A stretch of 40,034 nt of DNA from Candidatus Hydrogenedens sp. (GTDB lineage: Bacteria; Hydrogenedentota; Hydrogenedentia; Hydrogenedentales; Hydrogenedentaceae). A program made the translations under genes and the position numbers. The notes beneath the pieces were generated by a model, which saw only the letters and a program-made list of their open reading frames with translations, did no database searches and was not told the DNA's origin. Shown piece by piece: positions 2,796 through 36,223 of this stretch (position 1 is its first letter; the number at the start of each line of letters is the position of its first letter). Location of the stretch: assembly GCA_049968235.1 (NCBI GenBank), contig JBMFRC010000027.1, positions 1 through 40,034 of the forward strand, read 5' to 3'.

Positions 2796-3043
2796 GTTTT
2801 TATTGTTTTTCAATTACTTCTTCAAATTTATCTTTAATCTATTCATATTTTTCAATAATATTTTGGTTTCTTTTAATTTATAGCAATGTTTTTTATGAAT
2901 ATAAAAACTTTTGTTTTAGTTTAACTAAAAAAGAGTATAGTACTTTCATGTAAAATATGTTATTAGCATTCAGATGTTTGATATAGTATTGAAGTAAGAT
3001 TTTATTGAATGTAATTTTTGTTTTAACAGAGGAAAGGGATACT

Positions 3044-4489
3044 ATGATAAAGAAAAATATATTTATGATTTTTATATTTGTGCTGGTTACGGCTTCGTTT
3101 TTATGTGGTATTTCTTATGGTGTCGAAGCGGGCATTGCTAAAGATAGGATGTTAATTGTTAACGGGCAAAGAACCTTTATTTTAGGATTGTATAGCCCAA
3201 AAATGGATAACCCTGACGAACTGCAAACATTAGCAGATGCCGGTTTTAATCTGATTTCAATCAGTCCCAACGAGGAACAACTTAATATTGCTAAAGAACA
3301 TAATTTGATGGTATGGTCAAATATCCATTCTGCAATTGCTTCTCCGGATGCAGAAACGCGAAAACAGGAACTTCTGAAAATGATAGACCTTTGTGCAAAG
3401 CATCCTTCTTTTTTGGTCTGGGAGATGCCCGATGAAGCGTTATGGAACATATTCTTTCGCAATAATGAGGCGAAACGGTATAAAGAACCGCAGGCAATAC
3501 AGGAGAAATTAAAACAAATTACAGATGAGAAATTGAAAGTAGAATTAAGCAGTAAGTTACAGAAAGCGGGGGAATATTACAATAGAGGTTTATGGGTAGA
3601 GGGGGAAGAAATTGTAAATCAAATCTGGCAGAAAATAGGTGAAACTTCACCGTTTGCAAATTATTCAATGGCAAATATAGAGAAATTTAAGGCGGAGGAA
3701 TTGGAGAGACTTCATCAAGCCTATCAGATTATCAAAGAAGTGGACCCGAAGCACCCGGTATGGGCAAATCATGCACCTCGTAACTCGATGGAGAGTTTAC
3801 GCGAATTTAGTAAGTGTGCGGATATTGTGGGATGTGATATTTATCCTGTGCCCATGCATCCCAAACTACGGCATTCAGACCTGATGGACCAAACGATGGC
3901 ATCTGTTGGTGCATACACGCGTCGTATGCAGAATATAGATCCACAAAAACCCGTGTGGATGGTTATTCAGGGTTTTGATTGGGGAATGTTGCAGGGCGAT
4001 GTGTATGAGCGTAGCGGTAGTGAACAAAAAGGATTCCGGTCTCCGACACTTAATGAAATTCGTTTTATGGGTTTTGATTGTATAGTCAATGGGGCAAGAG
4101 GTATTTTATTCTGGGGGACGTATTATGTTCCGCGGGATATGCAGTTGTGGTCTGATTTAGTAACCTTTGCAAAGGAAATCAAATCTCTTCAGTCTGTACT
4201 CTCTGCAGAAGATATTTTACAACCAGTAAATATAACGCAGGATGAAATATTTGGTTCAGGTGACCGGGGAGTACTTGCTCTGGTGAAAGTTTATCAACAG
4301 AAGCCATGGATTTTACTTGTTAATGAATGGCATGAATGTGGGATTCGTTATCATATAAATTCTCCCTGTCTATTCTCCGGTCAAAAATACCGTGAATATT
4401 ATACTCAAACGGAAGTGGTGGTGGAAGGCAGTACTCTTACTTATGGTATTGAACCTCACGGTGTACAAATCTGGCAACCTGTAGAATAG
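3044..4489 (+). CDS. Secreted TIM-barrel glycoside-hydrolase-like protein (clan GH-A-like, family unresolved)
   Basis: The likely true start is the internal ATG at 3044, preceded by GAGGAAAGGGA; the track ORF starts at 3005. It has a signal peptide, MIKKNIFMIFIFVLVTASFLCG. The protein has alternating beta/alpha character, with a WEMPDEALWN segment reminiscent of the acid/base region of GH-A enzymes. The family assignment is uncertain. Confidence 0.35.
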   Translation: MIKKNIFMIFIFVLVTASFLCGISYGVEAGIAKDRMLIVNGQRTFILGLYSPKMDNPDELQTLADAGFNLISISPNEEQLNIAKEHNLMVWSNIHSAIASPDAETRKQELLKMIDLCAKHPSFLVWEMPDEALWNIFFRNNEAKRYKEPQAIQEKLKQITDEKLKVELSSKLQKAGEYYNRGLWVEGEEIVNQIWQKIGETSPFANYSMANIEKFKAEELERLHQAYQIIKEVDPKHPVWANHAPRNSMESLREFSKCADIVGCDIYPVPMHPKLRHSDLMDQTMASVGAYTRRMQNIDPQKPVWMVIQGFDWGMLQGDVYERSGSEQKGFRSPTLNEIRFMGFDCIVNGARGILFWGTYYVPRDMQLWSDLVTFAKEIKSLQSVLSAEDILQPVNITQDEIFGSGDRGVLALVKVYQQKPWILLVNEWHECGIRYHINSPCLFSGQKYREYYTQTEVVVEGSTLTYGIEPHGVQIWQPVE

Positions 4490-4546: not shown

Positions 4547-5110
4547 TTATTTCTGTGTGATTTTTCCATCAGGGGTTTGATATTTATGTCCTTGCTGGAT
4601 GTATTGGATTCGTGCACGGTAAAAAGCGTCCTGAATAGCAGATAAGGATTTGGGTGGGTAATTGTTGGCTTTGATAATGCCTTCGTAAAGAGCCCAGCGG
4701 TCACTATTTTCCCCTATTACGACCAGTGCATTTTTATCGCGTTGTTGACGGTTTGTGCTTCTCTTATATACATTATTTCTCTGGATAGCAATTAGACCAC
4801 CATTTTGTTCGTAAACGAAGCCTTTATCAAGAAGGTCTTTTATTAATTCGTGACGGACTGCACGAGTACGAATTGCCTGTTTTATTTGAGGTGTATCCAG
4901 GTTTATCCCAAGATTTGACAAATCTGGTTCGCGTTCACCTGCCCAGATTTTTTCTTCGATGTATTGTGCGGTTTTTAACAGTTCCTCTTGAGGAAGTGCG
5001 GAGTAGTCCGGTGCAATACGGATAAATGAATGTAGTGTTCCACAAGAAGTTAATATTAGAGTGAACAGGCACGGGACAATAGTTATGATAGCAGATTTTC
5101 TTAAAAGCAT
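4547..5110 (-). CDS. DUF1318 (YdbL-like) lipoprotein
   Basis: Signal peptide with a lipobox, LILTSC. The C-terminal half (GFVYEQNGGLIAIQRNN...DKNALVVIGENSDRWALYEGIIKANN...AIQDAFYRARIQY) resembles the YdbL/DUF1318 periplasmic family. Confidence 0.45.
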   Translation of the reverse strand: MLLRKSAIITIVPCLFTLILTSCGTLHSFIRIAPDYSALPQEELLKTAQYIEEKIWAGEREPDLSNLGINLDTPQIKQAIRTRAVRHELIKDLLDKGFVYEQNGGLIAIQRNNVYKRSTNRQQRDKNALVVIGENSDRWALYEGIIKANNYPPKSLSAIQDAFYRARIQYIQQGHKYQTPDGKITQK

Positions 5111-5127
5111 TTTTCTTCTTCCTTCTT

Positions 5128-6759
5128 TTAGGACAGATTGAGTTTTTTTGATGTAATAACCATATTTTTACCTTTTCGTTTTGCCTGATAAAGAGATTGG
5201 TCTGCAATACGAAGTAAATCTTCCACGGTTAGTGTTTCCTTCTGCACAACTTCTGCAACGCCACCGCTTACTGTAATGTTAACACTTTTTCCCATATATT
5301 CAAAAGGTCGGTCTTCGATGACTTTCCGTATTCGTTCTGCCTGGATATATGCCCCATCAATAGAAGTTTGTGGCATGATGATTATAAATTCTTCACCACC
5401 ATACCTTGCCGCAATATCCGTGCGTCGGATTGTTTGTAACATTCGGGTTGCAATTTCTTTCAACACTGCATCACCGAATAAATGTCCATAGGTATCATTA
5501 CACTTTTTAAAGTCATCTATATCAAACAGGGCACAGGATAATGGGACATTATACCTTAAACTTCGGAGTAATTCTTCTTCCAATCGTTCACGAAAATAGC
5601 GGTGATTGTAGATTCCTGTCAAACCATCAGTAATTGCAAGTTTTTGTAGAGTTTTATTTGCCTGCTGGACGGAGTCAAATAATTGGGCACGCTCTAATGC
5701 ACTCCCTGCTGCATTGGTTACAATTTCAAAGAAATTTATCTCGCGTAGTGTAAACCCTGCCTCTTTACGAACAGCACGAAGTAGCAGTGAACCTACCTCC
5801 GGGTCGTTTAATACGATAGGTATTACCAATATAGAATTAATTCCTTTTTGAATGAGCGAATCCAGACAGGGTTTCATCAAGGGGTCATTCTGAACATTAT
5901 TAATCACTACTTTATCACCGATAGATAGAGCCTTTTTGATTTCCGGGTACTTGCTCAAAGGCACTGCCATATCATAAAGATTTGCATCGTCGTGGGAAGC
6001 CAGCACATGCACTATATCTTCCTGCCCCCAGATACGCACTATGGAACAACGGTCAGATTGGACTACTTTTGATATTTGTTCCACGAACACATACAGAACA
6101 TCATGAGCACGTTTTTTGGCAGAAATTACCTTTAATATTTCCAGCACAGTTGCCAGTTCACTCTTATCCATTTCTATCAGGGACTCATGTCCAGAGAGCA
6201 ATTCTGTTTGTACATGCATAATACGTGTAGTTATTTCGGTTATTTTATCGAAATCTTCTCTGTAAGAACTAAATTGTTGAAGAAGGGATGGAGCAAATAG
6301 ATGAAGTAAATGTTGAATATAAACGCGGTGATAGGACCAGCCCCCATCAAAATTGCCGTTACCGTTAGTTTCCATTCTTTTTATGACAGTTCCAATAAAG
6401 GAAATTGCAAGGGACGATGAAACGATGATAAAAAGTCGGTCTGCCCTCTGAAAGTATGGTGGAGGATTATGTATTTCTATAGGAATGTTCCAATGTGAAG
6501 GGGATAAGCCCAGAACTATCATTTTGCTAATATTCGGTAGAAAATTATCAATTTCTCGTAACTGCTGTATCGTTTCCGCATCACTGATAACAACAAGATT
6601 ATTTCCTCCAAAGCGACCAATCTGGTTTAGTGCTTCATCGCAAAGAGTATAAAAAAGGGTTGCATTTTTAATAGGAATAAGGGCATGATGAGGGGGTAAT
6701 GATTGAAATTTAGAAGAATAAATTCTCTCTTTCAGGGTCGTATTTTCTATATCATTCAT
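5128..6759 (-). CDS. GAF domain-containing diguanylate cyclase (GGDEF)
   Basis: The C-terminus carries the GGDEF-domain hallmarks: DGLTGIYNHRYF, an active-site GGEEF motif (RYGGEEFIIIMPQ), and the RXXD I-site region. A GAF-like segment lies upstream (VLYVFVEQ...CSIVRIWGQED...). An N-terminal sensory region and a hydrophobic segment are present. Confidence 0.8.
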   Translation of the reverse strand: MNDIENTTLKERIYSSKFQSLPPHHALIPIKNATLFYTLCDEALNQIGRFGGNNLVVISDAETIQQLREIDNFLPNISKMIVLGLSPSHWNIPIEIHNPPPYFQRADRLFIIVSSSLAISFIGTVIKRMETNGNGNFDGGWSYHRVYIQHLLHLFAPSLLQQFSSYREDFDKITEITTRIMHVQTELLSGHESLIEMDKSELATVLEILKVISAKKRAHDVLYVFVEQISKVVQSDRCSIVRIWGQEDIVHVLASHDDANLYDMAVPLSKYPEIKKALSIGDKVVINNVQNDPLMKPCLDSLIQKGINSILVIPIVLNDPEVGSLLLRAVRKEAGFTLREINFFEIVTNAAGSALERAQLFDSVQQANKTLQKLAITDGLTGIYNHRYFRERLEEELLRSLRYNVPLSCALFDIDDFKKCNDTYGHLFGDAVLKEIATRMLQTIRRTDIAARYGGEEFIIIMPQTSIDGAYIQAERIRKVIEDRPFEYMGKSVNITVSGGVAEVVQKETLTVEDLLRIADQSLYQAKRKGKNMVITSKKLNLS

Positions 6760-6803
6760 TTTCCTTAATATCCTATTACTACTATCATGTAATCGTTATA
6801 GTT

Positions 6804-8138
6804 CTATTTTTTGACCTCTGTGTTTGTATTTGTATTTGTGGAATTATCTGCAGGAACATTATCTACCTGTGCCAGGGGGTAAACATCTTCAAATTTTATT
6901 TCTTCTTTGATAATAACAGGGGTTGAGCGAACAATCAAATCGTATATTTCTTCTACCTCTTCCGGATAGAATCGAATGCACCCGTTTGAGGAGTAGGTTC
7001 CTATGGTTTCGGGTGCAATGGTTCCATGAAGTCCTAAATCTGTGGGAAGCCCCGGTTCAGATGGTACTAAAGGCATCCATCGTGTTCCTAATTCATTTCT
7101 CGGGTCTCCCGCGGGAATAGAACCTTCTCCGGGTTTGAACCATGTGGGATTTTTTTGTTTATTTCCAATTTTGTAAGAGCCTAAGGTTGTTTCATGTCCG
7201 GGTTTGCCAAGCCCAACTTTATATCGCTTGAATATTCCCTGTTCATCTACTAAAAAAGCCCGACATTTGGACCGCTCCACAAGGAGACGGAAATCTTTCG
7301 GTGTATATTTTAATGTTTGGTTTAGACGGAGTTTTATGTTTTCATCTAATTGATTGGCACGACAAAGCATACCCACCGGTGTGTTTAATTTTACCCCAAT
7401 ACTGATTAGAGAATCCCCCTGTTGAACGGTATAAACTTTACTTTCGGGGGTGGGAGTATTGGAAAAGATAAGTTCAACATTTAATTTCCCTAATAAGTCT
7501 AATGATTCATTCCAGAGGTCCGAATCCCATTCTGCATCCATTACAGCCTTCTGGGTGAGGTCGCGTGCTTTAATCTTTTCATTTGCTTGCTCTTCTATTC
7601 GGGCTAAACCGAAATATCCATAAGCACGATTTCCTCGAGAAGCACGGTCAATAATGTCTTGATAACTGGCACGGGCAATATCCCTTTTCCCTATTGCTTC
7701 TGCAACTTGAGCATAACGATATTTGAGATAAGGAAACCTGATACTATTTTCGCATTTCTGTAAGGCTTCTTCTGCTATCGTAAAAGCATCATTGGCTTTC
7801 TCTTTTTTTAGTTCCAGTTCTATCCATAGCAGATATGCTTCTGCTAAGTTGTCCACCTGTTTCTCTTTTTTTACATAATTTTTTAACTCAGAAATTAAAT
7901 CATCATAATGCCCATCATCAAACATTTTTTTGAAGCGTTCTAAATTATTTTCTATTGTTTCTGTAGATGAAGTTGGAAGAAGTTTTTCTACTATTTTTTC
8001 TCTGGAAATGAGATTGGAAGAAGTGTAGAAAAATCGGTAGATAATATATCCTGCTATAAGGAATAACATAACTCCGATAAAAATACGGAGTAAAGTTCTA
8101 TCTGCGTTCTTTTTTGATGAAAAATATTGTTTTGGCAT
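6804..8138 (-). CDS. L,D-transpeptidase (YkuD) with LysM domain and an N-terminal TM plus TPR-like region
   Basis: LysM motif YTVQQGDSLISIGVKLNTPVGMLCRANQL. The YkuD catalytic signature is HGTIAPETIGTYSSNGCIRF (His...Ser-x-Gly-Cys-x-Arg). There is an N-terminal TM helix and helical repeats. Confidence 0.8.
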   Translation of the reverse strand: MPKQYFSSKKNADRTLLRIFIGVMLFLIAGYIIYRFFYTSSNLISREKIVEKLLPTSSTETIENNLERFKKMFDDGHYDDLISELKNYVKKEKQVDNLAEAYLLWIELELKKEKANDAFTIAEEALQKCENSIRFPYLKYRYAQVAEAIGKRDIARASYQDIIDRASRGNRAYGYFGLARIEEQANEKIKARDLTQKAVMDAEWDSDLWNESLDLLGKLNVELIFSNTPTPESKVYTVQQGDSLISIGVKLNTPVGMLCRANQLDENIKLRLNQTLKYTPKDFRLLVERSKCRAFLVDEQGIFKRYKVGLGKPGHETTLGSYKIGNKQKNPTWFKPGEGSIPAGDPRNELGTRWMPLVPSEPGLPTDLGLHGTIAPETIGTYSSNGCIRFYPEEVEEIYDLIVRSTPVIIKEEIKFEDVYPLAQVDNVPADNSTNTNTNTEVKK

Positions 8139-8144
8139 AAGTAC

Positions 8145-9092
8145 CTAAATTCTCGATTCGGTTGCTCGTTTTAAATCTAATAATAATTCTGTTATGGATT
8201 GGTAACGATGTTCTATTTTACGGCGAAGTGATTTTAAGATAATACGGTCCATGGCAGGAGTAAGTTGCGGATTATGAGTTGAAGGTGGAACGAATTTATA
8301 ATTGGGGTCTATCAATTGACGGGTTATAATTTTTGTATCGTTCCCTTCACAGGGATGTTTACCGGAGAAGAGTTCATACATCGTTAAACCGAAGGAGAAA
8401 ATATCGGAGCGGGGGTCTAAATTTTTCTTTAATATTTGTTCGGGGGACATGTAAAGTCGTGTTCCCCCGGTTTCTTTCATGAGCCAACTTTTCCATGTTG
8501 CATTTGTTTTGGATAGCCCGAAATCCACAATTTTGACCTGTTTGCCGTCTTTGGAGAACAGGAAGTTGGCAGGCTTAACATCTCGATGTACTATCCCATG
8601 CTGATGAAGATAATCCAATCCATGGCATAATTTAATACATATATCTATCATCTGACGGATACTTAAGTCACGGTCTGTGATATGTTTTTTTAAGTTGTAG
8701 CCATCAATAAACTCCATCACGATGCAACGGCGTGTTCTGCCCTGGACATCAAGTGCTTCATGTATGGTTTTATCCATACGAATTATATTGGGGTGATTTA
8801 ATGAAGCGGCTATCATTACTTCTCTGCCTAAGAAATCTTGCTTTCGCCGTTTGGGGTCTTCATCGAAACGCGGGTCAAGCACCTTAATTGCCACCGTTAA
8901 ATCTTTACTTCGGTCTATGGCTTTATACACAGTTCCCATACCACCACTTCCGATAGGTGCAATAATTTCATATGGCCCTACCTGACGAATTTCGAGTTCC
9001 GACCGATTAGGGTCGTAAAACTCCGAAGCAACTGACTGTGATGATATATCTGTTTTCTTTTTCTTAAAAATCCAGAACATTACCCCTCTCAA
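8145..9092 (-). CDS. Serine/threonine protein kinase (Hanks-type)
   Basis: Gly-loop IGSGGMGTVYKA, a VAIK lysine, the catalytic loop HRDVKPANFLF, and DFGLS and SPE motifs. It lies 6 bp upstream of the L,D-transpeptidase gene. Confidence 0.85.
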   Translation of the reverse strand: MRGVMFWIFKKKKTDISSQSVASEFYDPNRSELEIRQVGPYEIIAPIGSGGMGTVYKAIDRSKDLTVAIKVLDPRFDEDPKRRKQDFLGREVMIAASLNHPNIIRMDKTIHEALDVQGRTRRCIVMEFIDGYNLKKHITDRDLSIRQMIDICIKLCHGLDYLHQHGIVHRDVKPANFLFSKDGKQVKIVDFGLSKTNATWKSWLMKETGGTRLYMSPEQILKKNLDPRSDIFSFGLTMYELFSGKHPCEGNDTKIITRQLIDPNYKFVPPSTHNPQLTPAMDRIILKSLRRKIEHRYQSITELLLDLKRATESRI

Positions 9093-9166
9093 CTCTTAAT
9101 ATATTTATATATTTGATATTTTCATATTAATCATATCACAATTCCCTGAATAAAGTTAAGTCAATT

Positions 9167-10132
9167 TTATGCTGTTTTCCATTGGTGAACTCCCGTAGCA
9201 GGGACAGGGACTTCGTTAAGAATTTCTTTCAATACTGAAGAAACGGTAACTTTCCTTAATCTGCTTTCGGGATTTAGAATAAGCCGATGTTCTAAAACGG
9301 GAAATACAAGGGATTTTACATCATCTGGAATGACATATCCTCTTCCCAATACCGCTACGTATCCCTGACAACAACGAAACAACATCAGGGATGCACGGGG
9401 ACTTGCCCCCAACATGAGATGTGTATGGTCGCGGGTTCTCGCAATAATACGCAACATGTATTCTCTTACTTTGGGGTGGATGAAAATATCCCGTACTTTT
9501 GCCTGCATTTGAATAATGGTCTGTGGGTCTGTTACAGGTTTTAAAGTTTCAATAGGATGAGTTAATCGTAACCGCTCTAACATATCCAGTTCTGCAATCA
9601 TGCCCGGGTAGCCCATGGATATTTTTATCATAAATCGGTCTAACTGGGCTTCGGGGAGGGGGAAGGTTCCTTCGTGTTCTATAGGATTTTGAGTTGCAAA
9701 CACGATAAAAGGTTTGTTCAATATATATGTTTTCCCATCTACGGATACCTGTCCTTCTGCCATTGCTTCCAATAAGGCGGATTGTGTTCGGGGTGTTGCC
9801 CGATTGATTTCGTCTGCAACGACCACTTGATTAAAAATAGGTCCCGGACGAAATTCGAAGTTCTGTGTGGATTGATTAAATATAGAAACACCGGTTACAT
9901 CCGTAGGTAATAAATCTGGCGTGCATTGTATCCGTGTATAGGAACAACCACTCGAGATGGCTAAAGAGCGAGCCAGCATAGTCTTGGCAACACCCGGAAC
10001 ATCTTCCAATAAAATATGTCCCCCTGCTAAAAAAGCACCCAGTGCTGTTCGAACAACATGACTTTTATCCAATATAACTGTCTCGATATTCTGAACTAAA
10101 TCTTTAACAACATCCCGAAATTGTCCCGCCAT
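9167..10132 (-). CDS. MoxR-family AAA+ ATPase
   Basis: Walker A-like LLEDVPGVAKT, Walker B/sensor ADEINRATPRTQSALLEAMAEGQVSV, and a C-terminal MoxR-type lid region. It is about 320 aa, typical of the MoxR/RavA subfamily. Confidence 0.9.
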   Translation of the reverse strand: MAGQFRDVVKDLVQNIETVILDKSHVVRTALGAFLAGGHILLEDVPGVAKTMLARSLAISSGCSYTRIQCTPDLLPTDVTGVSIFNQSTQNFEFRPGPIFNQVVVADEINRATPRTQSALLEAMAEGQVSVDGKTYILNKPFIVFATQNPIEHEGTFPLPEAQLDRFMIKISMGYPGMIAELDMLERLRLTHPIETLKPVTDPQTIIQMQAKVRDIFIHPKVREYMLRIIARTRDHTHLMLGASPRASLMLFRCCQGYVAVLGRGYVIPDDVKSLVFPVLEHRLILNPESRLRKVTVSSVLKEILNEVPVPATGVHQWKTA

Positions 10133-10222
10133 ACAAGTCCTATCTTTGATATTTTATTGCTGAGAATACGTTAAAATGATATTATATATAATATAAAGGT
10201 AAAATAAAAAGATAGGAAAATT

Positions 10223-10975
10223 GTGAACGTTGTTATGAAACGGAATGTTTGCACTATCAGTTTATTCTTTTATACCTCGTTTTGTTTGCTATCTATAGCG
10301 GATACTCTGGCTGCCCGAGGAAAAACCTACCGAGATGTGTATATCATGGAAGGTATTTATTCGTATTATATACTTCTACCGGAAACAGGTACTATCGAAA
10401 GTGTTTTGAAGAAAGATATTGACGGGAAAACGGTGATTTTTGATGAAGCTGAAAAGAGAATGGCTTTAAAAAAGCAGTGGGACATAAAAAAGACAATTCC
10501 TATGAAATTATCAGGAGAAGAAAAAGAAATATTGGATAAAAAAGTGTGTGAGGATTCTCTTATAAAATCTGAACCCAGACAGTCCGCGTTTGTTTTGAAA
10601 AAGAAAGGGAACGCTTCACAAAATTTTGCTTCGGATAGTATTTATTCTTTTCAAAGAGGAGATATAGCCTATACGATGCCCGGAACTCCTTATTATTCCA
10701 ATAGTTCTCCTCGCAGAACAGATAATCGTGCATATGGAGTTTATAGTTCACAAAATATGGATAATCTTCCGAAAGTGGTGTTGCGAAATCCGCCTGTTGC
10801 AGGTTTGGGAAGGATGCCTATGGGTTATGGTGGTGGAATGGGTATGTATAACGATGTAACAGTTATTAGTAATATATCGGACCTGTTTTCAACTATAGAT
10901 GACCGTCTTGTTGGGGAGTTCGGCCCCCTTCGATTAGTTCCTTCGTCTGTGAATTCATTGGATAGTCGTAGATAA
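10223..10975 (+). CDS. Secreted hypothetical protein with a Gly/Met-rich C-terminal region
   Basis: N-terminal signal-like hydrophobic segment. There is a low-complexity GLGRMPMGYGGGMGMYND tract. I recognise no family. Confidence 0.4.
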   Translation: MNVVMKRNVCTISLFFYTSFCLLSIADTLAARGKTYRDVYIMEGIYSYYILLPETGTIESVLKKDIDGKTVIFDEAEKRMALKKQWDIKKTIPMKLSGEEKEILDKKVCEDSLIKSEPRQSAFVLKKKGNASQNFASDSIYSFQRGDIAYTMPGTPYYSNSSPRRTDNRAYGVYSSQNMDNLPKVVLRNPPVAGLGRMPMGYGGGMGMYNDVTVISNISDLFSTIDDRLVGEFGPLRLVPSSVNSLDSRR

Positions 10976-15821: not shown

Positions 15822-16376
15822 ATGATGATTTATTATGTATTTTTTTATGGGGGCGATGTGGTTATCTCGTTACTTGTATTTATTGTTTATATTCTTCTGA
15901 TTATAGGAGCGATAAAGGAATGTCGATGGGTCCGAGGGCGTATTTCACGGATGCAGTTAGAGGGAGCGGTTATAATGTTTTTAGGGACCGTTGCGAAGTG
16001 GATTGTGCTTAATCAATTTTTTGGTTTAGACCGATTGCAAAGTGAGGAATGGACATATTGGTTTAATCGTGGTGAACTTGGTTTGTATTTAGTTGGGCTT
16101 ATTTTGTTTGGCTTGGGTTTCTTTTTATCGCGCAGACCGCGATTGGGTCTTAAACCGTGGGACGCAGGAATAAAAAGGATGACCATGATGAGTTTCCTTA
16201 TAGCATTGGGTTTCGGTATACTATTATGGTTTTATTTATATGCACGCTGGTTTAATTTTTCATGGGAATATGTGCGAGTACTATTCAGTATCGCCTTATA
16301 TCCTTTTGCTATCGGCTACCTGAAACAGGAGCGAAATCCTTCGGTATTGCCTCCGGAGATTAAAGATTTAGTTTAA
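15822..16376 (+). CDS. Hypothetical integral membrane protein
   Basis: A 184-aa ORF with 5-6 predicted TM helices; the start codon is uncertain (several in-frame ATGs between 15800 and 15830). I recognise no family. Confidence 0.35.
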   Translation: MMIYYVFFYGGDVVISLLVFIVYILLIIGAIKECRWVRGRISRMQLEGAVIMFLGTVAKWIVLNQFFGLDRLQSEEWTYWFNRGELGLYLVGLILFGLGFFLSRRPRLGLKPWDAGIKRMTMMSFLIALGFGILLWFYLYARWFNFSWEYVRVLFSIALYPFAIGYLKQERNPSVLPPEIKDLV

Positions 16377-24229: not shown

Positions 24230-24357
24230 GGTTGGTCTCCTTTTCAGAATTTTTCATTTACAACAAATTATAATTTGAGTCTTTTTTCAGTAAATTGTAT
24301 ACTACTAAAACGATTTATCAAATAACAATCTTATTGTTGGAGAATAAAAATATACAT

Positions 24358-25740
24358 ATGATAATTTCAGCGGAGAAAAAGAAATTAAGTGGTTGGGGAA
24401 GGTATTCTTCCCTTGAAAGTTATGTGTTCCGCCCTGAGAAATGGAAGACTTTAGATGCGGTATTGAAAGATGACCGTGTTCCCGATTTTCTTGCAAGGGG
24501 TTTGGGACGGAGTTATGGAGATACTGCCCTGAATGAAGGAGGGGCTTTGATCAATATGCTGAGATTAAACCGATTCCTTAACTGGAATGAAGAAGATGGG
24601 GTACTGGAATGTGAAGGAGGGGTTACATTAAAAGAAATTCTGGATGTCTTTTTGCCTCGAGGCTGGATGCCGTATGTGTGTCCGGGAACAAAATTTGTTA
24701 CGGTTGGAGGCGCTATTGCGAACGATATTCACGGGAAGAACCATCATGAAGAAGGGAGTTTTGGAAATCATGTTTTATCGTTTGATTTGATAGTAGGGGA
24801 CGGAAACGTTGTTTGTTGTAGTCGCGATGAGAATTCGGATTTGTTTTGGGCAACCATCGGTGGGATTGGAATGACAGGGATAATCCGAACAGCAAAGATT
24901 CGGCTGAAGAAAGTAAAAACCGCCTATTTCCATGTAGATTACTATCAAGCAAAAAATTTAGATGATTTACTTGAAAAGATGAAGGACTATGATGTCAAAT
25001 ATCCTTATACTGTAGCGTGGTTAGATTGCCTTGCCCAGAAAGAGAGTATGGGCAGAGGTGTGTTGATGGGAGGACGCATGGCAGAAGTAGAGGATTTGCC
25101 TCCTCGCTGGAAAAATGCCCCTTTGACACCAAAGAAAAAAAGAGATATAACCGTTCCGTTTGATGCTCCATCATGGGCTTTAAGTCAACGAACAGTGGGT
25201 ATTTTCAATTCGTGGTATTATGATTTGAACAAATCCGGATATGAAATTGTACCGTTGGAAAAGTTCTTTTTCCCATTAGACCGTGTTTTAGAATGGAACA
25301 GAATGTATGGGAAGACAGGATTTATACAATATCAGGTGGTTTTTCCGGGAAATGAAGTAAAAGGATTAAAAATATTATTAGAACAGTTAGTTTCTTCTCA
25401 ACGAGCGTCTTTCTTAACTGTTTTGAAACGGTTTGGTTCTGGAAATGAAGGGTTATTGTCATTTCCCAGAGAGGGATATACATTGGCGTTAGATATACCC
25501 AATCATGCGGGTCTGATAAATTTTGTGGAGGATTTGAATTTGATTGTCTTGAGATATGGAGGGAGGCTTTACCTTGCCAAAGACCAACTGATGTCAGAGA
25601 GTATGTTCCGGGAGACCTATCCCCACTGGATACAATTTCAGGAGATAAAGATGAAGTATGACCCTGGTATTCGTTTTTCATCGACAATGGCACGACGAAT
25701 AGGACTTATTCCGGAACGGAGGAGGGCTCCTATATGTTAA
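24358..25740 (+). CDS. dprE1: DprE1-like FAD-dependent decaprenylphosphoryl-beta-D-ribofuranose 2'-oxidase
   Basis: The likely start is ATG 24358 after GGAGA; the track ORF begins at 24295. LSGWGRY and ARGLGRSYGD match M. tuberculosis DprE1 (LTGWGRT, ARGLGRSYGD). An FAD-binding PCMH-type region (VTVGGAIANDIHGKNHH) and an ALO-like C-terminal domain are present. Confidence 0.8.
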   Translation: MIISAEKKKLSGWGRYSSLESYVFRPEKWKTLDAVLKDDRVPDFLARGLGRSYGDTALNEGGALINMLRLNRFLNWNEEDGVLECEGGVTLKEILDVFLPRGWMPYVCPGTKFVTVGGAIANDIHGKNHHEEGSFGNHVLSFDLIVGDGNVVCCSRDENSDLFWATIGGIGMTGIIRTAKIRLKKVKTAYFHVDYYQAKNLDDLLEKMKDYDVKYPYTVAWLDCLAQKESMGRGVLMGGRMAEVEDLPPRWKNAPLTPKKKRDITVPFDAPSWALSQRTVGIFNSWYYDLNKSGYEIVPLEKFFFPLDRVLEWNRMYGKTGFIQYQVVFPGNEVKGLKILLEQLVSSQRASFLTVLKRFGSGNEGLLSFPREGYTLALDIPNHAGLINFVEDLNLIVLRYGGRLYLAKDQLMSESMFRETYPHWIQFQEIKMKYDPGIRFSSTMARRIGLIPERRRAPIC

Positions 25741-26507
25741 ATTCAAATGAAATGAAACCGACATCGAAATCGGTACTTGTTTTAGGTAGTGTTTCCGCTG
25801 TAGGAAAAGCCATAGCACATGAGTTTGCAAAAGAAGGTTATTCGTTATTGCTGGCTGATATAGAAACAGAAGAAAATGAACGAATTGCAAAAGATATTCA
25901 AATCCGCTACCGGGTTTATTGCGATACTTTATATTTTGATGCAGGCGATATAGATTCTCATTCCGCTTTTTGGGACAGGGTTGTTAATAAGATAAATGGC
26001 TTGCCCGAAGGTCTGGTAATTTGTTTCGGATATATGCCGGTGCAGGAAGAAGCACAAAAAGATTTTAATCTTATCAAAAGGTCTATAGACATTAATTTTA
26101 CAGGTGTGGTATCTATTCTGGAACGGGTTATTGGTAGGTTTGAAGAAAGAAAACATGGTTTTGCCATAGTAATTTCCTCTGTCGCCGGTGATAGAGGTCG
26201 TAAGAGTAATTATATTTACGGCTCTACCAAGGGGGCATTAACACGATATGTGGAAGGATTGCAACATCGGTTAAGTTCCGCGAAAGTGCATATATTGCTT
26301 GTAAAACCGGGTTTTATGGACACCGCCATGACCTATGGGTTAAATTTACCTCAAAAACTTTTGGCAAGTCCCGAAGAAGCGGGGCGTATTATTCACAAAG
26401 CATGGAAACGAAAGAAACATGTTGTTTATGTTAAATGGTTCTGGCGATACATTATGCTTATTATTCAACATTTGCCCCGATTTGTATTTCATCGTACCCA
26501 ATTATAA
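25734..26507 (+). CDS. dprE2: DprE2-like short-chain dehydrogenase (decaprenylphospho-2'-keto-ribose reductase)
   Basis: Overlaps the dprE1 stop by 7 bp. VLVLGSVSAVG (Rossmann), VISSVAGDRGRKSNYIYGSTKGAL (Mtb DprE2: [24 protein letters not shown]) and the C-terminal WFWRYIMLIIQHLPRFVFHR (Mtb: AFRYVMMVLRHIPRSIFRK) all match. Confidence 0.8.
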   Translation: MLNSNEMKPTSKSVLVLGSVSAVGKAIAHEFAKEGYSLLLADIETEENERIAKDIQIRYRVYCDTLYFDAGDIDSHSAFWDRVVNKINGLPEGLVICFGYMPVQEEAQKDFNLIKRSIDINFTGVVSILERVIGRFEERKHGFAIVISSVAGDRGRKSNYIYGSTKGALTRYVEGLQHRLSSAKVHILLVKPGFMDTAMTYGLNLPQKLLASPEEAGRIIHKAWKRKKHVVYVKWFWRYIMLIIQHLPRFVFHRTQL

Positions 26508-26525
26508 TGGGGATGAAGGATACGC

Positions 26526-27428
26526 ATGAAAATTCTTGTCTCACTTATAAAAACATTGAGGGTATATCAATGGACAAAAAATTTATTAGTATTTGCTGCG
26601 ATTATCTTTGCAGGCGAATTACTGAACTTAACGGCTATTAAACTTTCAATAATCGCCTTTTTTTCTTTTTGTTTTTCGGCAAGTTCCGCTTATATCCTGA
26701 ATGATGTTATTGATGTGGAAAAGGACCGACTTCATCCGGAGAAATCACGACGACCCATTCCCAGTGGAGATGTAAGTATCCCGATGGCGTTTTTCCTTAC
26801 TTTTACCTTAATAATACTCTCTCTATCATTAGGTTATACATTGGGCATAAAATTTATCGCAATCCTTCTGGTGTATGTTTTTCTAACGGTCAGTTATTCG
26901 TTGTTGTGGAAAAAGTTTTTTCTGGTGGACGTATTAATTTTGGCGATGGGTTTTGTAACGAGGGCTATAGCAGGTGCGGTGGCAATAAATGTGGTGTTTT
27001 CAAACTGGTTAATTGTATGCACCTTATTTTTAGCGTTATTTTTAGGACTGGGAAAAAGAAGGGGCGAATTGCTTCTATTAAAAGACGATGCAGAAAATCA
27101 TCGATCCGTCCTTGTATTTTATACGGTTGAATATTTAGACCAATTACTCCTTATTGTATCCAGCGGTGCTTTAATTACTTTTACAATTTACACATGTTCG
27201 CCAGAGGTAATTGCTCGCTTGCATACCGATAAATTATATATGAGTTTGCCCTTTGTAATTTATGGTTTGTTTCGCTATCTTTATTTAGTTCGGTATCAAG
27301 GGGAAGGTTCAGACCCCAGCAAGGTGTTACTATCTGATAAGCCTATTATACTCTGCGTAATTTTATGGGCATTAACGAATGTTTGTATTATTTACGGAGA
27401 GCAGATTATTCATTTACTCTATACCTGA
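26526..27428 (+). CDS. UbiA-family polyprenyl-phosphate 5-phosphoribosyltransferase (Rv3806c/UbiA-like)
   Basis: A 300-aa polytopic membrane protein with the UbiA Asp-rich motif NDVIDVEKDRLH and a second Asp-rich region. The size and its position right after dprE1/dprE2 mirror mycobacterial decaprenyl-phosphate phosphoribosyltransferase. Confidence 0.7.
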   Translation: MKILVSLIKTLRVYQWTKNLLVFAAIIFAGELLNLTAIKLSIIAFFSFCFSASSAYILNDVIDVEKDRLHPEKSRRPIPSGDVSIPMAFFLTFTLIILSLSLGYTLGIKFIAILLVYVFLTVSYSLLWKKFFLVDVLILAMGFVTRAIAGAVAINVVFSNWLIVCTLFLALFLGLGKRRGELLLLKDDAENHRSVLVFYTVEYLDQLLLIVSSGALITFTIYTCSPEVIARLHTDKLYMSLPFVIYGLFRYLYLVRYQGEGSDPSKVLLSDKPIILCVILWALTNVCIIYGEQIIHLLYT

Positions 27429-34070: not shown

Positions 34071-34472
34071 ATGGCACACAACTCAGGTTTCACTCTCATA
34101 GAACTTATTCTGGTAACGATTATCATCGGTATTCTTGCGGGTATGGTGGTGATGAATTATGGAGGTAGAGTGCGTGAAACACAAATTCGAGCTGCAAAAG
34201 GCGATATAGCAACTTATTGTAATGCTGTAGACTTGTATGCATTAGACCATAATGATAAATATCCTGCCAGTTTAGAAGATTTAGTCAGCGGTGAGCGTCG
34301 TTATGTTCGTGAAGTCCGTCCTGACCCATGGGGCAATCCATATATTTATAAACCAGCTACTGACCCATTAAAAGCAGATTATCAAATTTTTTCGGCCGGA
34401 CCGGATGGTGTTCCCGGAAATGAAGATGATGTTACATCTTCATCAAAGACAGAACTTACATCGAAAAAATAA
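34071..34472 (+). CDS. gspG: Type II secretion major pseudopilin GspG
   Basis: Prepilin leader plus GFTLIELILVTIIIGILAGM (cleavage/methylation motif). The GspG-specific PDPWGNPYIY motif is present. 133 aa. Confidence 0.85.
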   Translation: MAHNSGFTLIELILVTIIIGILAGMVVMNYGGRVRETQIRAAKGDIATYCNAVDLYALDHNDKYPASLEDLVSGERRYVREVRPDPWGNPYIYKPATDPLKADYQIFSAGPDGVPGNEDDVTSSSKTELTSKK

Positions 34473-34500
34473 CTATATCAAGAATTAAGATACGAACAGG

Positions 34501-35022
34501 GTGCATATTATTTATTATGTAAAAAAAGCAAAATATGGATTTACTCTCCTTGAGTTAGTCGTTGTAGTAGCATTGATTTCCATACTGACAGGTATGATTA
34601 TCCCGATATATAACCGCACGATGTATTCACTCCGTATAAGAAATACCACGCAGGATATAACCTCGCTAATTCGGTATGCTCAGGAAAAAGCAGTAGCAGA
34701 ATCACGCGAATTTCGTGTGCTAATTGATGAGGAAAAGGGGACTTTTTCATTGTTTCGTTTGAAAAGCCAATCTTGGGATGGAGAAAAAGAGTTCGAACCT
34801 GTGGGAACCGCAGATGGAGGTGGAATGATTACCCTGCCCGAAACAATACAAATTTCACGAATAACAGCGGGTAAGGACCGAAAAACAGGTATCCGTTATA
34901 TTTCCTGCTATCCTAATGGTGCTTCCGACCCGGGGCAAATTGAGTTAGAGCCACAAATTCGAGGACAACAACGTATTCTTATTAAGTGGACAGGAGCATT
35001 GGGGAGGTTTGAAATAAAATGA
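34501..35022 (+). CDS. Minor pseudopilin (GspH-like)
   Basis: N-terminal prepilin-type motif GFTLLELVVVVALISILTGM. Size about 170 aa and position after gspG. Confidence 0.55.
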   Translation: MHIIYYVKKAKYGFTLLELVVVVALISILTGMIIPIYNRTMYSLRIRNTTQDITSLIRYAQEKAVAESREFRVLIDEEKGTFSLFRLKSQSWDGEKEFEPVGTADGGGMITLPETIQISRITAGKDRKTGIRYISCYPNGASDPGQIELEPQIRGQQRILIKWTGALGRFEIK

Positions 35023-35486
35023 GACGGACTGCACAAGAAATGGGTTATATATTATTTGAAGCAGTATTTTCTATGGCGATATTAAGTATTGCGGGTTTGA
35101 CCTTCCAGTCTGCCTTACACCAAGCCATTTTAACCCGTGGACAAGCCCTTGATTATACAACTGCTAAATTCCTGCTGGAGCAAATGAATGCAGAGATAGA
35201 ATTACAACCCCAACATGTAGAAGGTGAAAAATCGGGAACTTTTCCAGAACCATATAATCGCTTTTCATATCAATACCAAATTTCCAAATTACCCATACCC
35301 AAACCGGAGTTACCACCTGAATTACCGCCACAACTCCGTGAGAATTTAGAAAAAATGTTCCGTGACTATATTACAAAAGTAGACATCTGGATACGGTGGC
35401 AAAGGGCAGGAATGAAATTTGAAGTCCATGCCCAGAATTTATTTCAACCTGAGAAGTTATGGACACCCGAAGAATATCAACAATAA
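35019..35486 (+). CDS. Minor pseudopilin-like protein (GspI-like, divergent prepilin N-terminus)
   Basis: The start overlaps the previous stop. The N-terminal hydrophobic helix GYILFEAVFSMAILSIAG resembles the class III signal/pseudopilin helix but lacks the canonical F/E pattern. Operon position supports the call. Confidence 0.4.
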   Translation: MRRTAQEMGYILFEAVFSMAILSIAGLTFQSALHQAILTRGQALDYTTAKFLLEQMNAEIELQPQHVEGEKSGTFPEPYNRFSYQYQISKLPIPKPELPPELPPQLRENLEKMFRDYITKVDIWIRWQRAGMKFEVHAQNLFQPEKLWTPEEYQQ

Positions 35487-36223
35487 AAAATAGGTTATTA
35501 CTTTGTCCCCGACAGAGAGGCTTCACATTAATGGAACTTCTTGTCGCTACGACATTGTTAAGTATTGTCCTTTCTTCTGTTTATGTGCTTTTTCACTCAT
35601 CAATCCAGACATGGAAACGACTGGAGTCGGGTGTCAATCCTCAGCAAGATGCTCGCCTTGTAATGAATCTGATAGGCAGGGATATAAACAATCTTATTGC
35701 TTCTGCGGGACATTTATTTGAGGGAGATGACCAGCAGATGACTTTATTTGTTATTACGGAACCATTTGATAAGGATACAGGAGAAGGGGGACATCTTATG
35801 CGGATTGAGTATAAATATAATCGGGGGCAGAAACGATTGGAACGGGAAGAAGCATTGGTAGAGACTGCATTGCCCAAAGTACCTCCTGCCAATCGTGAAC
35901 TTGACCGTTCGCGGGTTAAGGTAACCAGAAAAAAGAAGGTAACCCTTGTAGAAAATGTACGGGAATTTGAAATAACTTATATCTGGATTCCCTATGATGA
36001 GAAAAGGAACTGGAAGGAACCTCCAAGCCCTGTTGAGCCTGTGCGTGTTCAGAAACATAAACTTTGTTGGTGGCTACCTCAGGGTATAGAGATTAAAATG
36101 GCTCTTTATGACCCTGACCAACCGGAAGGGGAAACAGTATATAAGGAAACTTTTCCAATTCGTGCTCCTTCTGCCCATTTAACGGAAGAACAACTTCAGA
36201 AATTGCTAAGGGATGAGTTATGA
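35459..36223 (+). CDS. Minor pseudopilin (GspJ-like)
   Basis: Prepilin motif RGFTLMELLVATTLLSIVLSSV. About 250 aa, as for GspJ. Confidence 0.55.
   Translation: MDTRRISTIKNRLLLCPRQRGFTLMELLVATTLLSIVLSSVYVLFHSSIQTWKRLESGVNPQQDARLVMNLIGRDINNLIASAGHLFEGDDQQMTLFVITEPFDKDTGEGGHLMRIEYKYNRGQKRLEREEALVETALPKVPPANRELDRSRVKVTRKKKVTLVENVREFEITYIWIPYDEKRNWKEPPSPVEPVRVQKHKLCWWLPQGIEIKMALYDPDQPEGETVYKETFPIRAPSAHLTEEQLQKLLRDEL

What the first reader, a model, noticed from the sequence alone, without database searches (positions are those of the whole stretch)
4547..10132. Minus-strand operon coupling a MoxR ATPase, a Hanks kinase, a LysM-L,D-transpeptidase, a GAF-GGDEF cyclase and a DUF1318 lipoprotein
Five genes run head-to-tail on the minus strand with gaps of 74, 6, 44 and 17 bp. 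MoxR ATPases normally pair with a VWA/DUF58 partner; none is present here. Instead MoxR is followed by a Ser/Thr kinase and a peptidoglycan cross-linking enzyme carrying the YkuD HG...SxGCxR motif. This arrangement suggests a cell-wall remodelling or c-di-GMP signalling module in which a chaperone-like ATPase and phosphorylation control an L,D-transpeptidase.
Basis: partly seen in the sequence, partly recalled or inferred. Interest (0 to 1): 0.55.

Follow-up and report, generated by a model that had tools for sequence, protein, structure and literature searches.

The report
Conserved Hydrogenedentota cell-wall signalling gene cluster
Five co-directional genes (a MoxR ATPase, a soluble PknB-like kinase, a membrane-anchored peptidoglycan L,D-transpeptidase, a c-di-GMP cyclase and a small lipoprotein) keep the same order across the uncultured phylum Hydrogenedentota, so they very probably work together to link cell-wall state to second-messenger signalling; how they do so is still inferred.

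Summary
Five minus-strand genes lie at 10132..4547 with gaps of 74 (86 from the likely ATG), 6, 44 and 17 bp, and every domain call is correct.

The source is a Candidatus Hydrogenedens MAG. In 80 loci from different Hydrogenedentota species the order and strand are the same, although LDT identity falls to about 45% and the flanking genes differ.
- Kinase: 58/61 loci.
- MoxR: 49/61.
- Cyclase: 61/72.
- Lipoprotein: 65/72.

All catalytic motifs are invariant. Two pairs are tightly coupled: kinase-LDT (median gap 6 bp) and cyclase-lipoprotein (about -10 bp). MoxR is the loosest member. It is absent from about 20% of loci, and it co-occurs with a divergently transcribed secreted protein of unknown function.

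No VWA or DUF58 gene lies in the window or within 8-10 kb in seven annotated contexts. The cyclase's unannotated N-terminal domain has a TrmB/PLD-like fold, not a VWA fold. An HDOD gene follows the cluster in 24/54 loci.

I read this as a phylum-specific envelope-to-c-di-GMP module made of known parts. The claim that MoxR and phosphorylation control the LDT remains inference. I found no prior description. Interest is moderate.

The parts
10223..10975 (+). Divergently transcribed secreted protein of unknown function (250 aa). It has a signal peptide, a Gly-rich stretch and a conserved C-terminal NISxLFSTIDDRLVGE motif. It is a possible sixth member, linked to MoxR.
   Evidence: No Pfam or NCBIfam hit. 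A homologue lies divergently next to MoxR in 27-28/46 MoxR+ loci and 0/10 MoxR- loci. The orthologue in L092 has a faint STN hit.
10133..10222 (.). AT-rich 90-bp divergent intergenic region, the likely promoter region for MoxR and the secreted protein.
   Evidence: Sequence. A promoter-like site TTTACC-16-TATCAT lies on the minus strand at 10203-10176. This is a consensus match only.
9167..10132 (-). MoxR-type AAA+ ATPase (321 aa), cytoplasmic.
   Evidence: AAA_3 4.6e-62 and AAA_lid_2. Nearest solved structure is 2R44, a Cytophaga MoxR, at 4.5e-69. Walker A GVAKT and Walker B DEINR are conserved in 54/54 orthologues. Present in 49/61 loci.
9081..9166 (.). MoxR-kinase intergenic gap (86 bp, AT-rich). 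A possible internal promoter.
   Evidence: Sequence. Promoter-like hexamers TTAACT-18-TATGAT with an upstream TG lie at 9159-9130. The median gap across loci is 99 bp.
8145..9080 (-). Soluble Hanks-type Ser/Thr kinase (311 aa). It is a kinase domain only, with no TM or sensor domain, and has an invariant C-terminal ESRI.
   Evidence: Pkinase 9.8e-54. Nearest solved structures are PknB 1e-41, StkP and PknA. G-loop, K70, HRDxKxxN, DFG and SPE are invariant. Present in 58/61 loci. The median gap to the LDT is 6 bp.
6804..8138 (-). Bitopic L,D-transpeptidase (444 aa): short basic cytoplasmic tail, TM helix, TPR, LysM, YkuD.
   Evidence: Pfam. AF2 model with pLDDT 88. Foldseek top hit is B. subtilis YkuD 1y7m at 8.8e-12. 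H371, C387 and R389 are invariant in 82/82.
8010..8099 (-). LDT transmembrane helix (aa 14-43). Residues 1-13 form the cytoplasmic tail (MxKRYF..K motif).
   Evidence: AF2 secondary structure. Tail conservation.
7467..7946 (-). LDT periplasmic TPR-like helical repeat region (aa 65-224).
   Evidence: AF2 helices 65-224, pLDDT above 95. Orthologues carry TPR Pfam hits.
7305..7439 (-). LDT LysM peptidoglycan-binding domain (aa 234-278).
   Evidence: Pfam LysM 9.3e-7. AF2 model.
6906..7289 (-). LDT YkuD catalytic domain (aa 284-411).
   Evidence: Pfam YkuD 2.3e-20. The HG...SxGCxR motif is invariant.
5128..6759 (-). Cytoplasmic diguanylate cyclase (543 aa): novel N-terminal sensor domain, coiled linker, GAF, GGDEF with I-site.
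   Evidence: GGDEF 2.9e-47 and GAF 6e-9. RxxD and GGEEF are conserved in 64/64. Present in 61/72 loci.
6295..6678 (-). Cyclase N-terminal alpha/beta domain (aa ~28-155) with a non-catalytic PLD-like / TrmB sugar-binding-domain-like fold. A putative ligand sensor.
5692..6105 (-). Cyclase GAF domain (aa 219-356).
   Evidence: Pfam GAF/GAF_2.
5164..5637 (-). Cyclase GGDEF catalytic domain (aa 375-532), with GGEEF active site and RRTD I-site.
   Evidence: Pfam. Motif conservation.
4547..5110 (-). Lipoprotein (187 aa) with a family-specific N-terminal part and a DUF1318 (YdbL-like) C-terminal domain (aa 87-187, nt 4550-4852).
   Evidence: DUF1318 at 30.7 bits, recurring in 24/37 orthologues. Lipobox Cys23 is conserved in 69/69. 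Present in 65/72 loci. The median gap to the cyclase is about -10 bp.

Best explanation
This is a vertically inherited, phylum-wide operon-like module of Hydrogenedentota that couples peptidoglycan L,D-transpeptidation at the envelope to cytoplasmic Ser/Thr phosphorylation and c-di-GMP synthesis.

Shown.
- The core is two tightly coupled gene pairs.
- Pair 1 is a soluble PknB-like kinase with a bitopic TPR-LysM-YkuD L,D-transpeptidase.
- Pair 2 is a cytoplasmic sensor cyclase (TrmB/PLD-like domain, GAF, GGDEF with I-site) with a DUF1318 lipoprotein.
- All catalytic residues are intact in every lineage.
- MoxR is a frequent (80%) but dispensable upstream member with no local VWA partner.

Inferred.
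- The kinase has no sensor or membrane domain of its own. I propose it is recruited by the conserved basic cytoplasmic tail of the LDT (MxKRYF..K).
- The two proteins together would then act like a split PASTA-type kinase. LysM, TPR and YkuD would report peptidoglycan state in the periplasm, and the kinase would signal inside the cell.
- The likeliest phosphorylation targets are the neighbouring cyclase or the LDT tail, changing c-di-GMP output or LDT activity.
- The periplasmic DUF1318 lipoprotein would act, like YdbL, as a protein-binding modulator of an envelope partner.
- MoxR, where present, would remodel or assemble one of these complexes, or serve the secreted protein encoded divergently beside it.
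For: - Same order and strand in 80 species-level loci, while the flanking genes differ.
- Presence: kinase 58/61, MoxR 49/61, cyclase 61/72, lipoprotein 65/72.
- Median gaps of 6 bp (kinase-LDT) and about -10 bp (cyclase-lipoprotein).
- Ribosome-binding sites at the junctions and no intergenic terminator-like hairpins.
- Invariant Walker A/B, kinase catalytic motifs, YkuD His/Cys/Arg, RxxD and GGEEF, and lipobox Cys.
- The kinase is closest to PknB, StkP and PknA and has no extra domain.
- LDT topology from a confident model.
- The cyclase's N-terminal domain has a ligand-binding-type fold.
- An HDOD gene follows on the same strand in 24/54 loci. HDOD is a signalling-associated domain.
- The phylum is diderm with mDAP-type peptidoglycan, the LDT substrate type (PMC11406978).
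- YdbL is a periplasmic protein-binding modulator (PMC13464000).
Against: - There is no experimental or transcript evidence, and no cultured member of the phylum exists.
- The cytoplasmic tail of the LDT is only about 13 residues, and its Ser/Thr residues are not invariant, so it is a weak candidate phospho-acceptor.
- The kinase's similarity to PknB is generic for bacterial Hanks kinases.
- The cluster holds no phosphatase or FHA partner.
- Eleven of 72 loci lack the cyclase and 12 of 61 lack MoxR, so neither is obligatory for the kinase-LDT pair.
- Gaps of about 80-100 bp at MoxR-kinase and LDT-cyclase allow separate promoters.
- All loci come from one phylum, so the counts are not phylogenetically independent.
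Confidence: 0.55

Rival explanations
1. MoxR is not part of the kinase-LDT-cyclase module. It forms its own unit with the divergently transcribed secreted Gly-rich protein, or with a VWA/DUF58 partner encoded elsewhere, and sits next to the module only through ancestral gene order.
For: - MoxR is absent from 12/61 loci while the other four genes persist.
- It has the largest median gap, 99 bp. The window's gap is AT-rich and holds promoter-like hexamers.
- The secreted protein lies beside MoxR in 27-28/46 MoxR+ loci and 0/10 MoxR- loci (naive Fisher p = 8e-4).
Against: - MoxR keeps the same position and strand in 49 lineages whose upstream genes differ.
- No VWA or DUF58 gene lies within 8-10 kb in seven annotated contexts.
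- The secreted protein has a signal peptide, whereas MoxR is cytoplasmic.
- The co-occurrence test is not corrected for phylogeny.
Confidence: 0.3
2. The LDT's job is to attach the co-encoded DUF1318 lipoprotein covalently to peptidoglycan, as E. coli LdtA-C attach Braun's lipoprotein through its C-terminal lysine. The kinase and cyclase would only regulate this tethering.
For: - The window lipoprotein ends in ...GKITQK.
- A Lys aligned with K187 is present in 48/58 orthologues within a conserved GQKYE-x3-G-x4-K tail.
- The LDT and the lipoprotein co-occur in 65/72 loci.
- LysM-YkuD enzymes include lipoprotein-anchoring transpeptidases (established knowledge; JGI names for homologues).
Against: - In many orthologues the Lys is followed by 1-10 more residues.
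- The whole tail is missing in several lineages (L007, L024, L060, L062, L081).
- The lipoprotein is translationally coupled to the cyclase, not to the LDT.
- DUF1318/YdbL is known as a non-covalent binder.
Confidence: 0.15
3. The arrangement is frozen ancestral synteny of unrelated housekeeping genes, with no functional coupling.
For: All loci come from a single phylum, so shared ancestry alone could keep neighbours together. Some lineages drop individual genes.
Against: - The flanks on both sides have been reshuffled repeatedly while the five-gene order survives to about 45% protein identity.
- Gaps of 6 bp and overlaps indicate co-translation.
- The gene functions are thematically coherent: cell wall, envelope lipoprotein and signalling.
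Confidence: 0.08
4. It is an anti-phage defence island built around a kinase and an AAA+ ATPase.
For: The kinase matches the PD-T4-6 and mad6 kinase models in PADLOC.
Against: - Those matches cover only the generic kinase domain. MoxR, the LDT, the cyclase and the lipoprotein have no PADLOC hit.
- The cluster is core, vertically inherited and phylum-wide rather than patchy.
- Its composition matches the rest of the window.
Confidence: 0.02

Closest known systems
PASTA-domain Hanks kinases (M. tuberculosis PknB, S. pneumoniae StkP, B. subtilis PrkC) and their cell-wall operons
   Same: The kinase domain is closest to PknB, StkP and PknA (NCBIfam PknB_PASTA_kin at 244 bits over the kinase domain). 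It is genetically linked to a peptidoglycan enzyme that carries a peptidoglycan-binding module.
   Different: The kinase has no TM segment and no PASTA repeats. The peptidoglycan-binding part (LysM, TPR, YkuD) is on a separate bitopic protein. No PP2C phosphatase or FHA partner is present. A functional link is inferred only.
MoxR-VWA chaperone pairs (MoxR-DUF58-BatA/B 'Bat' operons, RavA-ViaA, CbbQ-CbbO, NorQ-NorD)
   Same: AAA_3 plus AAA_lid_2 architecture with intact Walker motifs. The nearest solved structure is the Cytophaga MoxR 2R44.
   Different: No VWA or DUF58 gene lies in the 40-kb window or within 8-10 kb in seven related contexts. The neighbours are a kinase and a secreted Gly-rich protein instead. 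Genome-wide absence was not tested.
LysM-YkuD L,D-transpeptidases (B. subtilis YkuD; E. coli LdtA-E)
   Same: LysM followed by a YkuD domain with the catalytic His/Cys/Arg. Foldseek's best match is YkuD 1y7m.
   Different: It adds an N-terminal TM anchor and a ~160-residue TPR region. Sequence similarity to every characterised LDT is low (E 1e-6 to 1e-11). The substrate (3-3 cross-link, protein tethering or carboxypeptidase) is unknown.
YfiBNR (TpbB) envelope-stress c-di-GMP system of Pseudomonas and E. coli
   Same: An operon that combines a diguanylate cyclase with an outer-membrane lipoprotein and links envelope or peptidoglycan state to c-di-GMP (my own knowledge, not tested here).
   Different: YfiN is a membrane cyclase with a periplasmic sensor, and YfiB is an OmpA-like peptidoglycan binder. 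Here the cyclase is soluble with TrmB-like and GAF sensors, the lipoprotein is DUF1318, and a kinase and an LDT are present.
E. coli YdbH-YnbE-YdbL lipid-bridge operon (DUF1318 = YdbL)
   Same: The C-terminal half of the lipoprotein matches DUF1318. YdbL is a periplasmic protein-binding modulator (PMC13464000).
   Different: No YdbH (AsmA-like) or YnbE gene is adjacent. The protein here is lipidated and carries an extra ~60-residue N-terminal part and a C-terminal tail. The Pfam match is weak.

Membership tests
MoxR AAA+ ATPase (Pfam AAA_3) | AAA_3 ATPase core plus AAA_lid_2, with Walker A GxxGxAKT and Walker B DExNR | tested here: met
   AAA_3 4.6e-62 and AAA_lid_2 2.7e-18. GVAKT and DEINR are conserved in 54/54. 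2R44 matches at 4.5e-69.
MoxR-VWA two-component chaperone system | An adjacent gene encoding a VWA/MIDAS or DUF58 partner | tested here: not met
   None in any window ORF of at least 120 aa, nor within 8-10 kb in L001, L003, L005, L009, L090, L091 and L092. The cyclase N-terminal domain is PLD/TrmB-like, not VWA. The rest of the genome was not searchable.
Hanks-type Ser/Thr protein kinase | G-loop, VAIK Lys, HRDxKxxN catalytic loop, DFG and APE-like motifs | tested here: met
   Pkinase 9.8e-54. All motifs are invariant in 69-73 orthologues.
PASTA kinase (PknB/StkP/PrkC) | A transmembrane segment and extracellular PASTA repeats fused to the kinase | tested here: not met
   The 311-aa protein ends with ESRI just after the kinase domain. 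There is no TM or PASTA hit.
YkuD L,D-transpeptidase | YkuD fold with catalytic His and the SxGCxR cysteine motif | tested here: met
   YkuD 2.3e-20. H371, C387 and R389 are conserved in 82/82. Foldseek matches YkuD, LdtMt2 and Ldtfm.
YkuD L,D-transpeptidase | Demonstrated L,D-transpeptidase activity and a defined acceptor (3-3 cross-link versus protein tethering) | not testable with these tools
   This needs enzymology or muropeptide analysis.
Active diguanylate cyclase (GGDEF) | GG(D/E)EF active site. The RxxD I-site five residues upstream is optional. | tested here: met
   GGDEF 2.9e-47. GGEEF and RxxD are conserved in 64/64.
DUF1318 / YdbL | A match to PF07027 above the gathering score | tested here: met
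   30.7 bits against a cut-off of 27 for the window protein. 24/37 orthologues match at E<=0.01. The match is weak and covers the C-terminal half only.
DUF1318 / YdbL | Genomic association with YdbH (AsmA-like) and YnbE | tested here: not met
   No such genes are next to the cluster in the window or in the annotated contexts.
Braun-lipoprotein-like peptidoglycan-tethered lipoprotein | A strictly C-terminal Lys used as acceptor by the LDT | tested here: inconclusive
   Lys is conserved in 48/58 but is often not terminal, and the tail is absent from several lineages.
Phospholipase D superfamily enzyme (cyclase N-terminal domain) | The HxK(x)4D catalytic motif | tested here: not met
   The fold is PLD/TrmB-like, but the conserved residues are D60, T63, G84, P87, S114, F137, G139 and W141, with no HxK.

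The most novel reading that the evidence does not exclude
The kinase and the LDT form a new kind of split cell-wall sensor. A soluble Hanks kinase docks on the short cytoplasmic tail of a TPR-LysM-YkuD transpeptidase. It reports or controls L,D-cross-linking and drives c-di-GMP synthesis through the neighbouring TrmB-like/GAF cyclase. MoxR acts on this complex without any VWA adaptor, which would be a previously undescribed VWA-independent mode of MoxR action.
Probability: 0.15. Interest if true: 0.7.

Novelty: new variant of a known kind. Interest (0 to 1): 0.45.

Why it matters
Hydrogenedentota have no cultured representative, and almost nothing is known of their cell biology (PMC11406978). 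A gene cluster kept intact across the whole phylum marks a process these bacteria cannot easily do without.

If the inferred coupling is real, it would be one of the few cases where three things are wired together genetically: Ser/Thr phosphorylation, an L,D-transpeptidase and c-di-GMP synthesis. L,D-transpeptidases matter for beta-lactam tolerance and outer-membrane tethering.

It would also give a MoxR ATPase a context without the usual VWA adaptor. Separately, it defines a new, unannotated sensor domain on a diguanylate cyclase, and a conserved secreted protein family of unknown function.

Tried and rejected
- Defence system. Rejected: PADLOC matches only the generic kinase domain, and the cluster is core and phylum-wide.
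- Lpp-like tethering of the lipoprotein through a C-terminal Lys. Only partly supported, so kept as a minor rival.
- Homologue search with the cyclase N-terminal fragment alone. It returned nothing, not even the parent protein. This looks like an indexing limitation, and it cost one search.
- Pfam at E<=10 on nine N-terminal domains. No hit.
- AlphaFold-database fold search. The library was unavailable.
- PDB profile search with the lipoprotein alignment. No meaningful hit.
- Literature searches for the cluster, for MoxR combined with LDT or cyclase, and for Hydrogenedentota cell envelope or isolates. Nothing specific was found. Two searches failed on term syntax.
- tRNA and Rfam scans of the window. 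Empty.
- Promoter and terminator consensus scans. Not above shuffled expectation, so they give only weak support.

Full report
**Observation.** The kinase ORF as listed begins at a TTG. An ATG at 9080 follows a GAGAGGGG Shine-Dalgarno and is the more likely start. It gives the 311-aa product called in the NCBI records and an 86-bp gap. Pfam confirms every domain:
- MoxR: AAA_3 plus AAA_lid_2.
- Kinase: Pkinase.
- LDT: LysM plus YkuD.
- Cyclase: GAF plus GGDEF.
- Last gene: a weak DUF1318 match (30.7 bits against a cut-off of 27).

The HG...SxGCxR motif is present (H371, C387, R389). The last protein has a lipobox (LTSC, Cys23). No tRNA or Rfam element lies in the window, and base composition is uniform.

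**Source and context.** The same proteins occur in two NCBI MAG assemblies, and NCBI names the LDT as from Candidatus Hydrogenedens sp.. The rest of the window encodes glycoside hydrolases, sugar-metabolism enzymes, glycosyltransferases, a sulfotransferase and a type II secretion pseudopilin cluster. No ORF of at least 120 aa carries a VWA or DUF58 domain.

**Synteny.** I followed LDT homologues at 71%, 57%, 48% and 47% identity. The same order (MoxR, kinase, LDT, cyclase, small protein) appeared each time with unrelated flanking genes. One lineage lacked MoxR.

A scan of one genome per GTDB species with an LDT alignment found 156 loci. The 80 retained are almost all labelled Hydrogenedentota. 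A few carry 'uncultured Nitrospirales' or 'FCB group' labels, but their sequences group with Hydrogenedentota loci.

I ran tblastn with the five window proteins over all loci. Order and strand were always the same. Among loci with enough flanking sequence:

| Gene | Present | Loci with enough flank |
|---|---|---|
| Kinase | 58 (plus 9/9 loci with shorter flanks) | 61 |
| MoxR | 49 | 61 |
| Cyclase | 61 | 72 |
| Lipoprotein | 65 | 72 |

MoxR stays 65-75% identical in loci where the LDT is only about 45% identical. Three further annotated contexts agree.

**Operon structure.** Approximate intergenic distances across loci show two tight pairs and two looser junctions.

| Junction | Median gap (bp) |
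|---|---|
| MoxR to kinase | 99 |
| Kinase to LDT | 6 |
| LDT to cyclase | 81 |
| Cyclase to lipoprotein | about -10 |

In the window, the kinase stop and the LDT start are 6 nt apart. Good Shine-Dalgarno sequences precede the cyclase and lipoprotein genes. No terminator-like hairpin falls in any intergenic gap. Promoter-like hexamers occur in the AT-rich MoxR-kinase gap, but such matches are no more frequent than in shuffled sequence.

**Are the proteins functional?** All catalytic motifs are invariant across orthologues:
- MoxR: Walker A and Walker B.
- Kinase: G-loop, Lys70, HRDxKxxN, DFG and SPE.
- LDT: His, Cys and Arg of the YkuD motif.
- Cyclase: GGEEF and the RxxD I-site.
- Lipoprotein: the lipobox Cys.

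The kinase has no domain beyond the catalytic one and ends in an invariant ESRI. Its nearest solved relatives are PknB, StkP and PknA.

A confident LDT model (pLDDT 88) shows these regions:
- a disordered cytoplasmic tail;
- a TM helix (aa 14-43);
- a linker;
- a TPR-like region (aa 65-224);
- LysM (aa 234-278);
- YkuD (aa 284-411).

Foldseek's best match is B. subtilis YkuD. Sequence similarity to any characterised LDT is low.

**Extra members.** A secreted protein with no family assignment (window 10223-10975) is transcribed divergently from MoxR.
- Homologues occupy that position in 27-28 of 46 MoxR-containing loci and in none of 10 MoxR-less loci (naive Fisher p = 8e-4, not corrected for phylogeny).
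- The family has a conserved N-terminal module, a Gly-rich low-complexity region and a strongly conserved C-terminal NISxLFSTIDDRLVGE motif.
- Most lineages also have a central segment that gave a faint STN hit in L092.

Separately, an HDOD-HD gene follows the lipoprotein gene on the same strand within 3 kb in 24 of 54 loci, though not in the window's own clade.

**The lipoprotein.** DUF1318 is matched by 24 of 37 orthologues. In E. coli the DUF1318 protein YdbL is a periplasmic modulator that binds the C-terminal helix of the lipoprotein YnbE (PMC13464000). No YdbH or YnbE gene is adjacent here.

The window protein ends in Lys. The aligned Lys is conserved in 48/58 orthologues. It is often followed by further residues, and the whole tail is absent from several lineages. 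A Braun-lipoprotein-like tethering role is therefore possible but weakly supported.

**Interpretation.** It is shown that this is a conserved, co-directional, tightly spaced cluster of catalytically intact genes specific to Hydrogenedentota. The phylum is diderm, has mDAP-type peptidoglycan and has no cultured member (PMC11406978).

The following steps are inferred.
- The soluble kinase and the bitopic LDT act together. The periplasmic TPR-LysM-YkuD part would supply the peptidoglycan contact that PASTA repeats supply in PknB-type kinases.
- The cyclase, with two cytoplasmic sensor domains and an I-site, converts this and a small-molecule input into c-di-GMP.
- The lipoprotein modulates an envelope partner.
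- MoxR is accessory, and it may instead belong with the divergent secreted protein.

A defence-island reading is rejected. Simple frozen synteny is unlikely, given the repeatedly reshuffled flanks and the 6-bp and overlapping junctions.

**Novelty.** Full-text searches found no description of this cluster. Every component belongs to a known family. What is new is the conserved combination, the local absence of a VWA partner for MoxR, the new cyclase sensor domain and the secreted protein family. I rate it a new variant of known kinds, of moderate interest. The mechanism is unproven and cannot be tested in culture at present.

Noticed in passing
window 10223-10975 (+); homologues e.g. L092 5378-6448 (-), L060 4744-5739 (-): A secreted protein family with no Pfam or NCBIfam assignment. 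It has a conserved N-terminal module, a (GGFGG)n low-complexity region and an almost invariant C-terminal NISxLFSTIDDRLVGE motif. Most lineages also have a central STN-like segment. It is always divergent from MoxR and was never seen in MoxR-less loci.
   Followed up: partly
L007 11448-12317, L019 11464-12366, L092 12893-13753 and 21 other loci: An HDOD-HD domain gene follows the lipoprotein gene on the same strand in 24/54 Hydrogenedentota loci, both MoxR+ and MoxR-. It is missing from the window's own clade, where a convergent 481-aa gene of unknown function (window 3005-4489) takes its place.
   Followed up: partly
window 6295-6678 (-), cyclase aa ~28-155: An unannotated, fast-evolving domain with a TrmB sugar-binding / PLD-like fold, fused to GAF-GGDEF. 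There is no Pfam model for it, and only 7 representatives exist among 1.84 billion proteins. It is a candidate new sensor-domain family.
   Followed up: yes
window 24295-27428 (+): Three adjacent genes encode FAD_binding_4/ALO, a short-chain dehydrogenase and a UbiA prenyltransferase. The trio resembles the DprE1/DprE2/UbiA set that makes decaprenyl-phospho-arabinose in Corynebacteriales (resemblance recalled from memory). That would be unexpected in this phylum.
   Followed up: no
window 34071-39758 (+): A type II secretion / pseudopilin cluster: GspG- and GspH-like proteins, two further N-methyl prepilins, and GspK-, L/PilM-N- and M-like proteins.
   Followed up: no
window 3005-4489 (+) and 15822-16376 (+): ORFs of 481-494 aa and 184 aa with no Pfam or NCBIfam match. 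The first is conserved at the same convergent position, but only in close relatives (60-86% identity in L003, L005, L010, L012-L015).
   Followed up: partly
L015, L016, L017, L019, L028, L035 and others: Several MAGs labelled 'uncultured Nitrospirales/Nitrospiraceae' carry the full cluster. Their identities interleave with those of Hydrogenedentota MAGs. For example, L015 matches L014 in every gene. The labels are probably taxonomic mis-assignments.
   Followed up: partly
kinase orthologues, alignment A4: All kinase orthologues end in an invariant ...SRI immediately after the kinase domain. They also share a basic insert (D-x-D-x-K-R-R-K) after the VAIK strand. These may be docking elements.
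   Followed up: no
L025 9353-11665; L085, L042, L052, L066: Variant clusters. In L025-type loci, radical-SAM genes follow the LDT, and both the cyclase and the lipoprotein are absent. In four other loci the lipoprotein follows the LDT directly, with no cyclase.
   Followed up: partly
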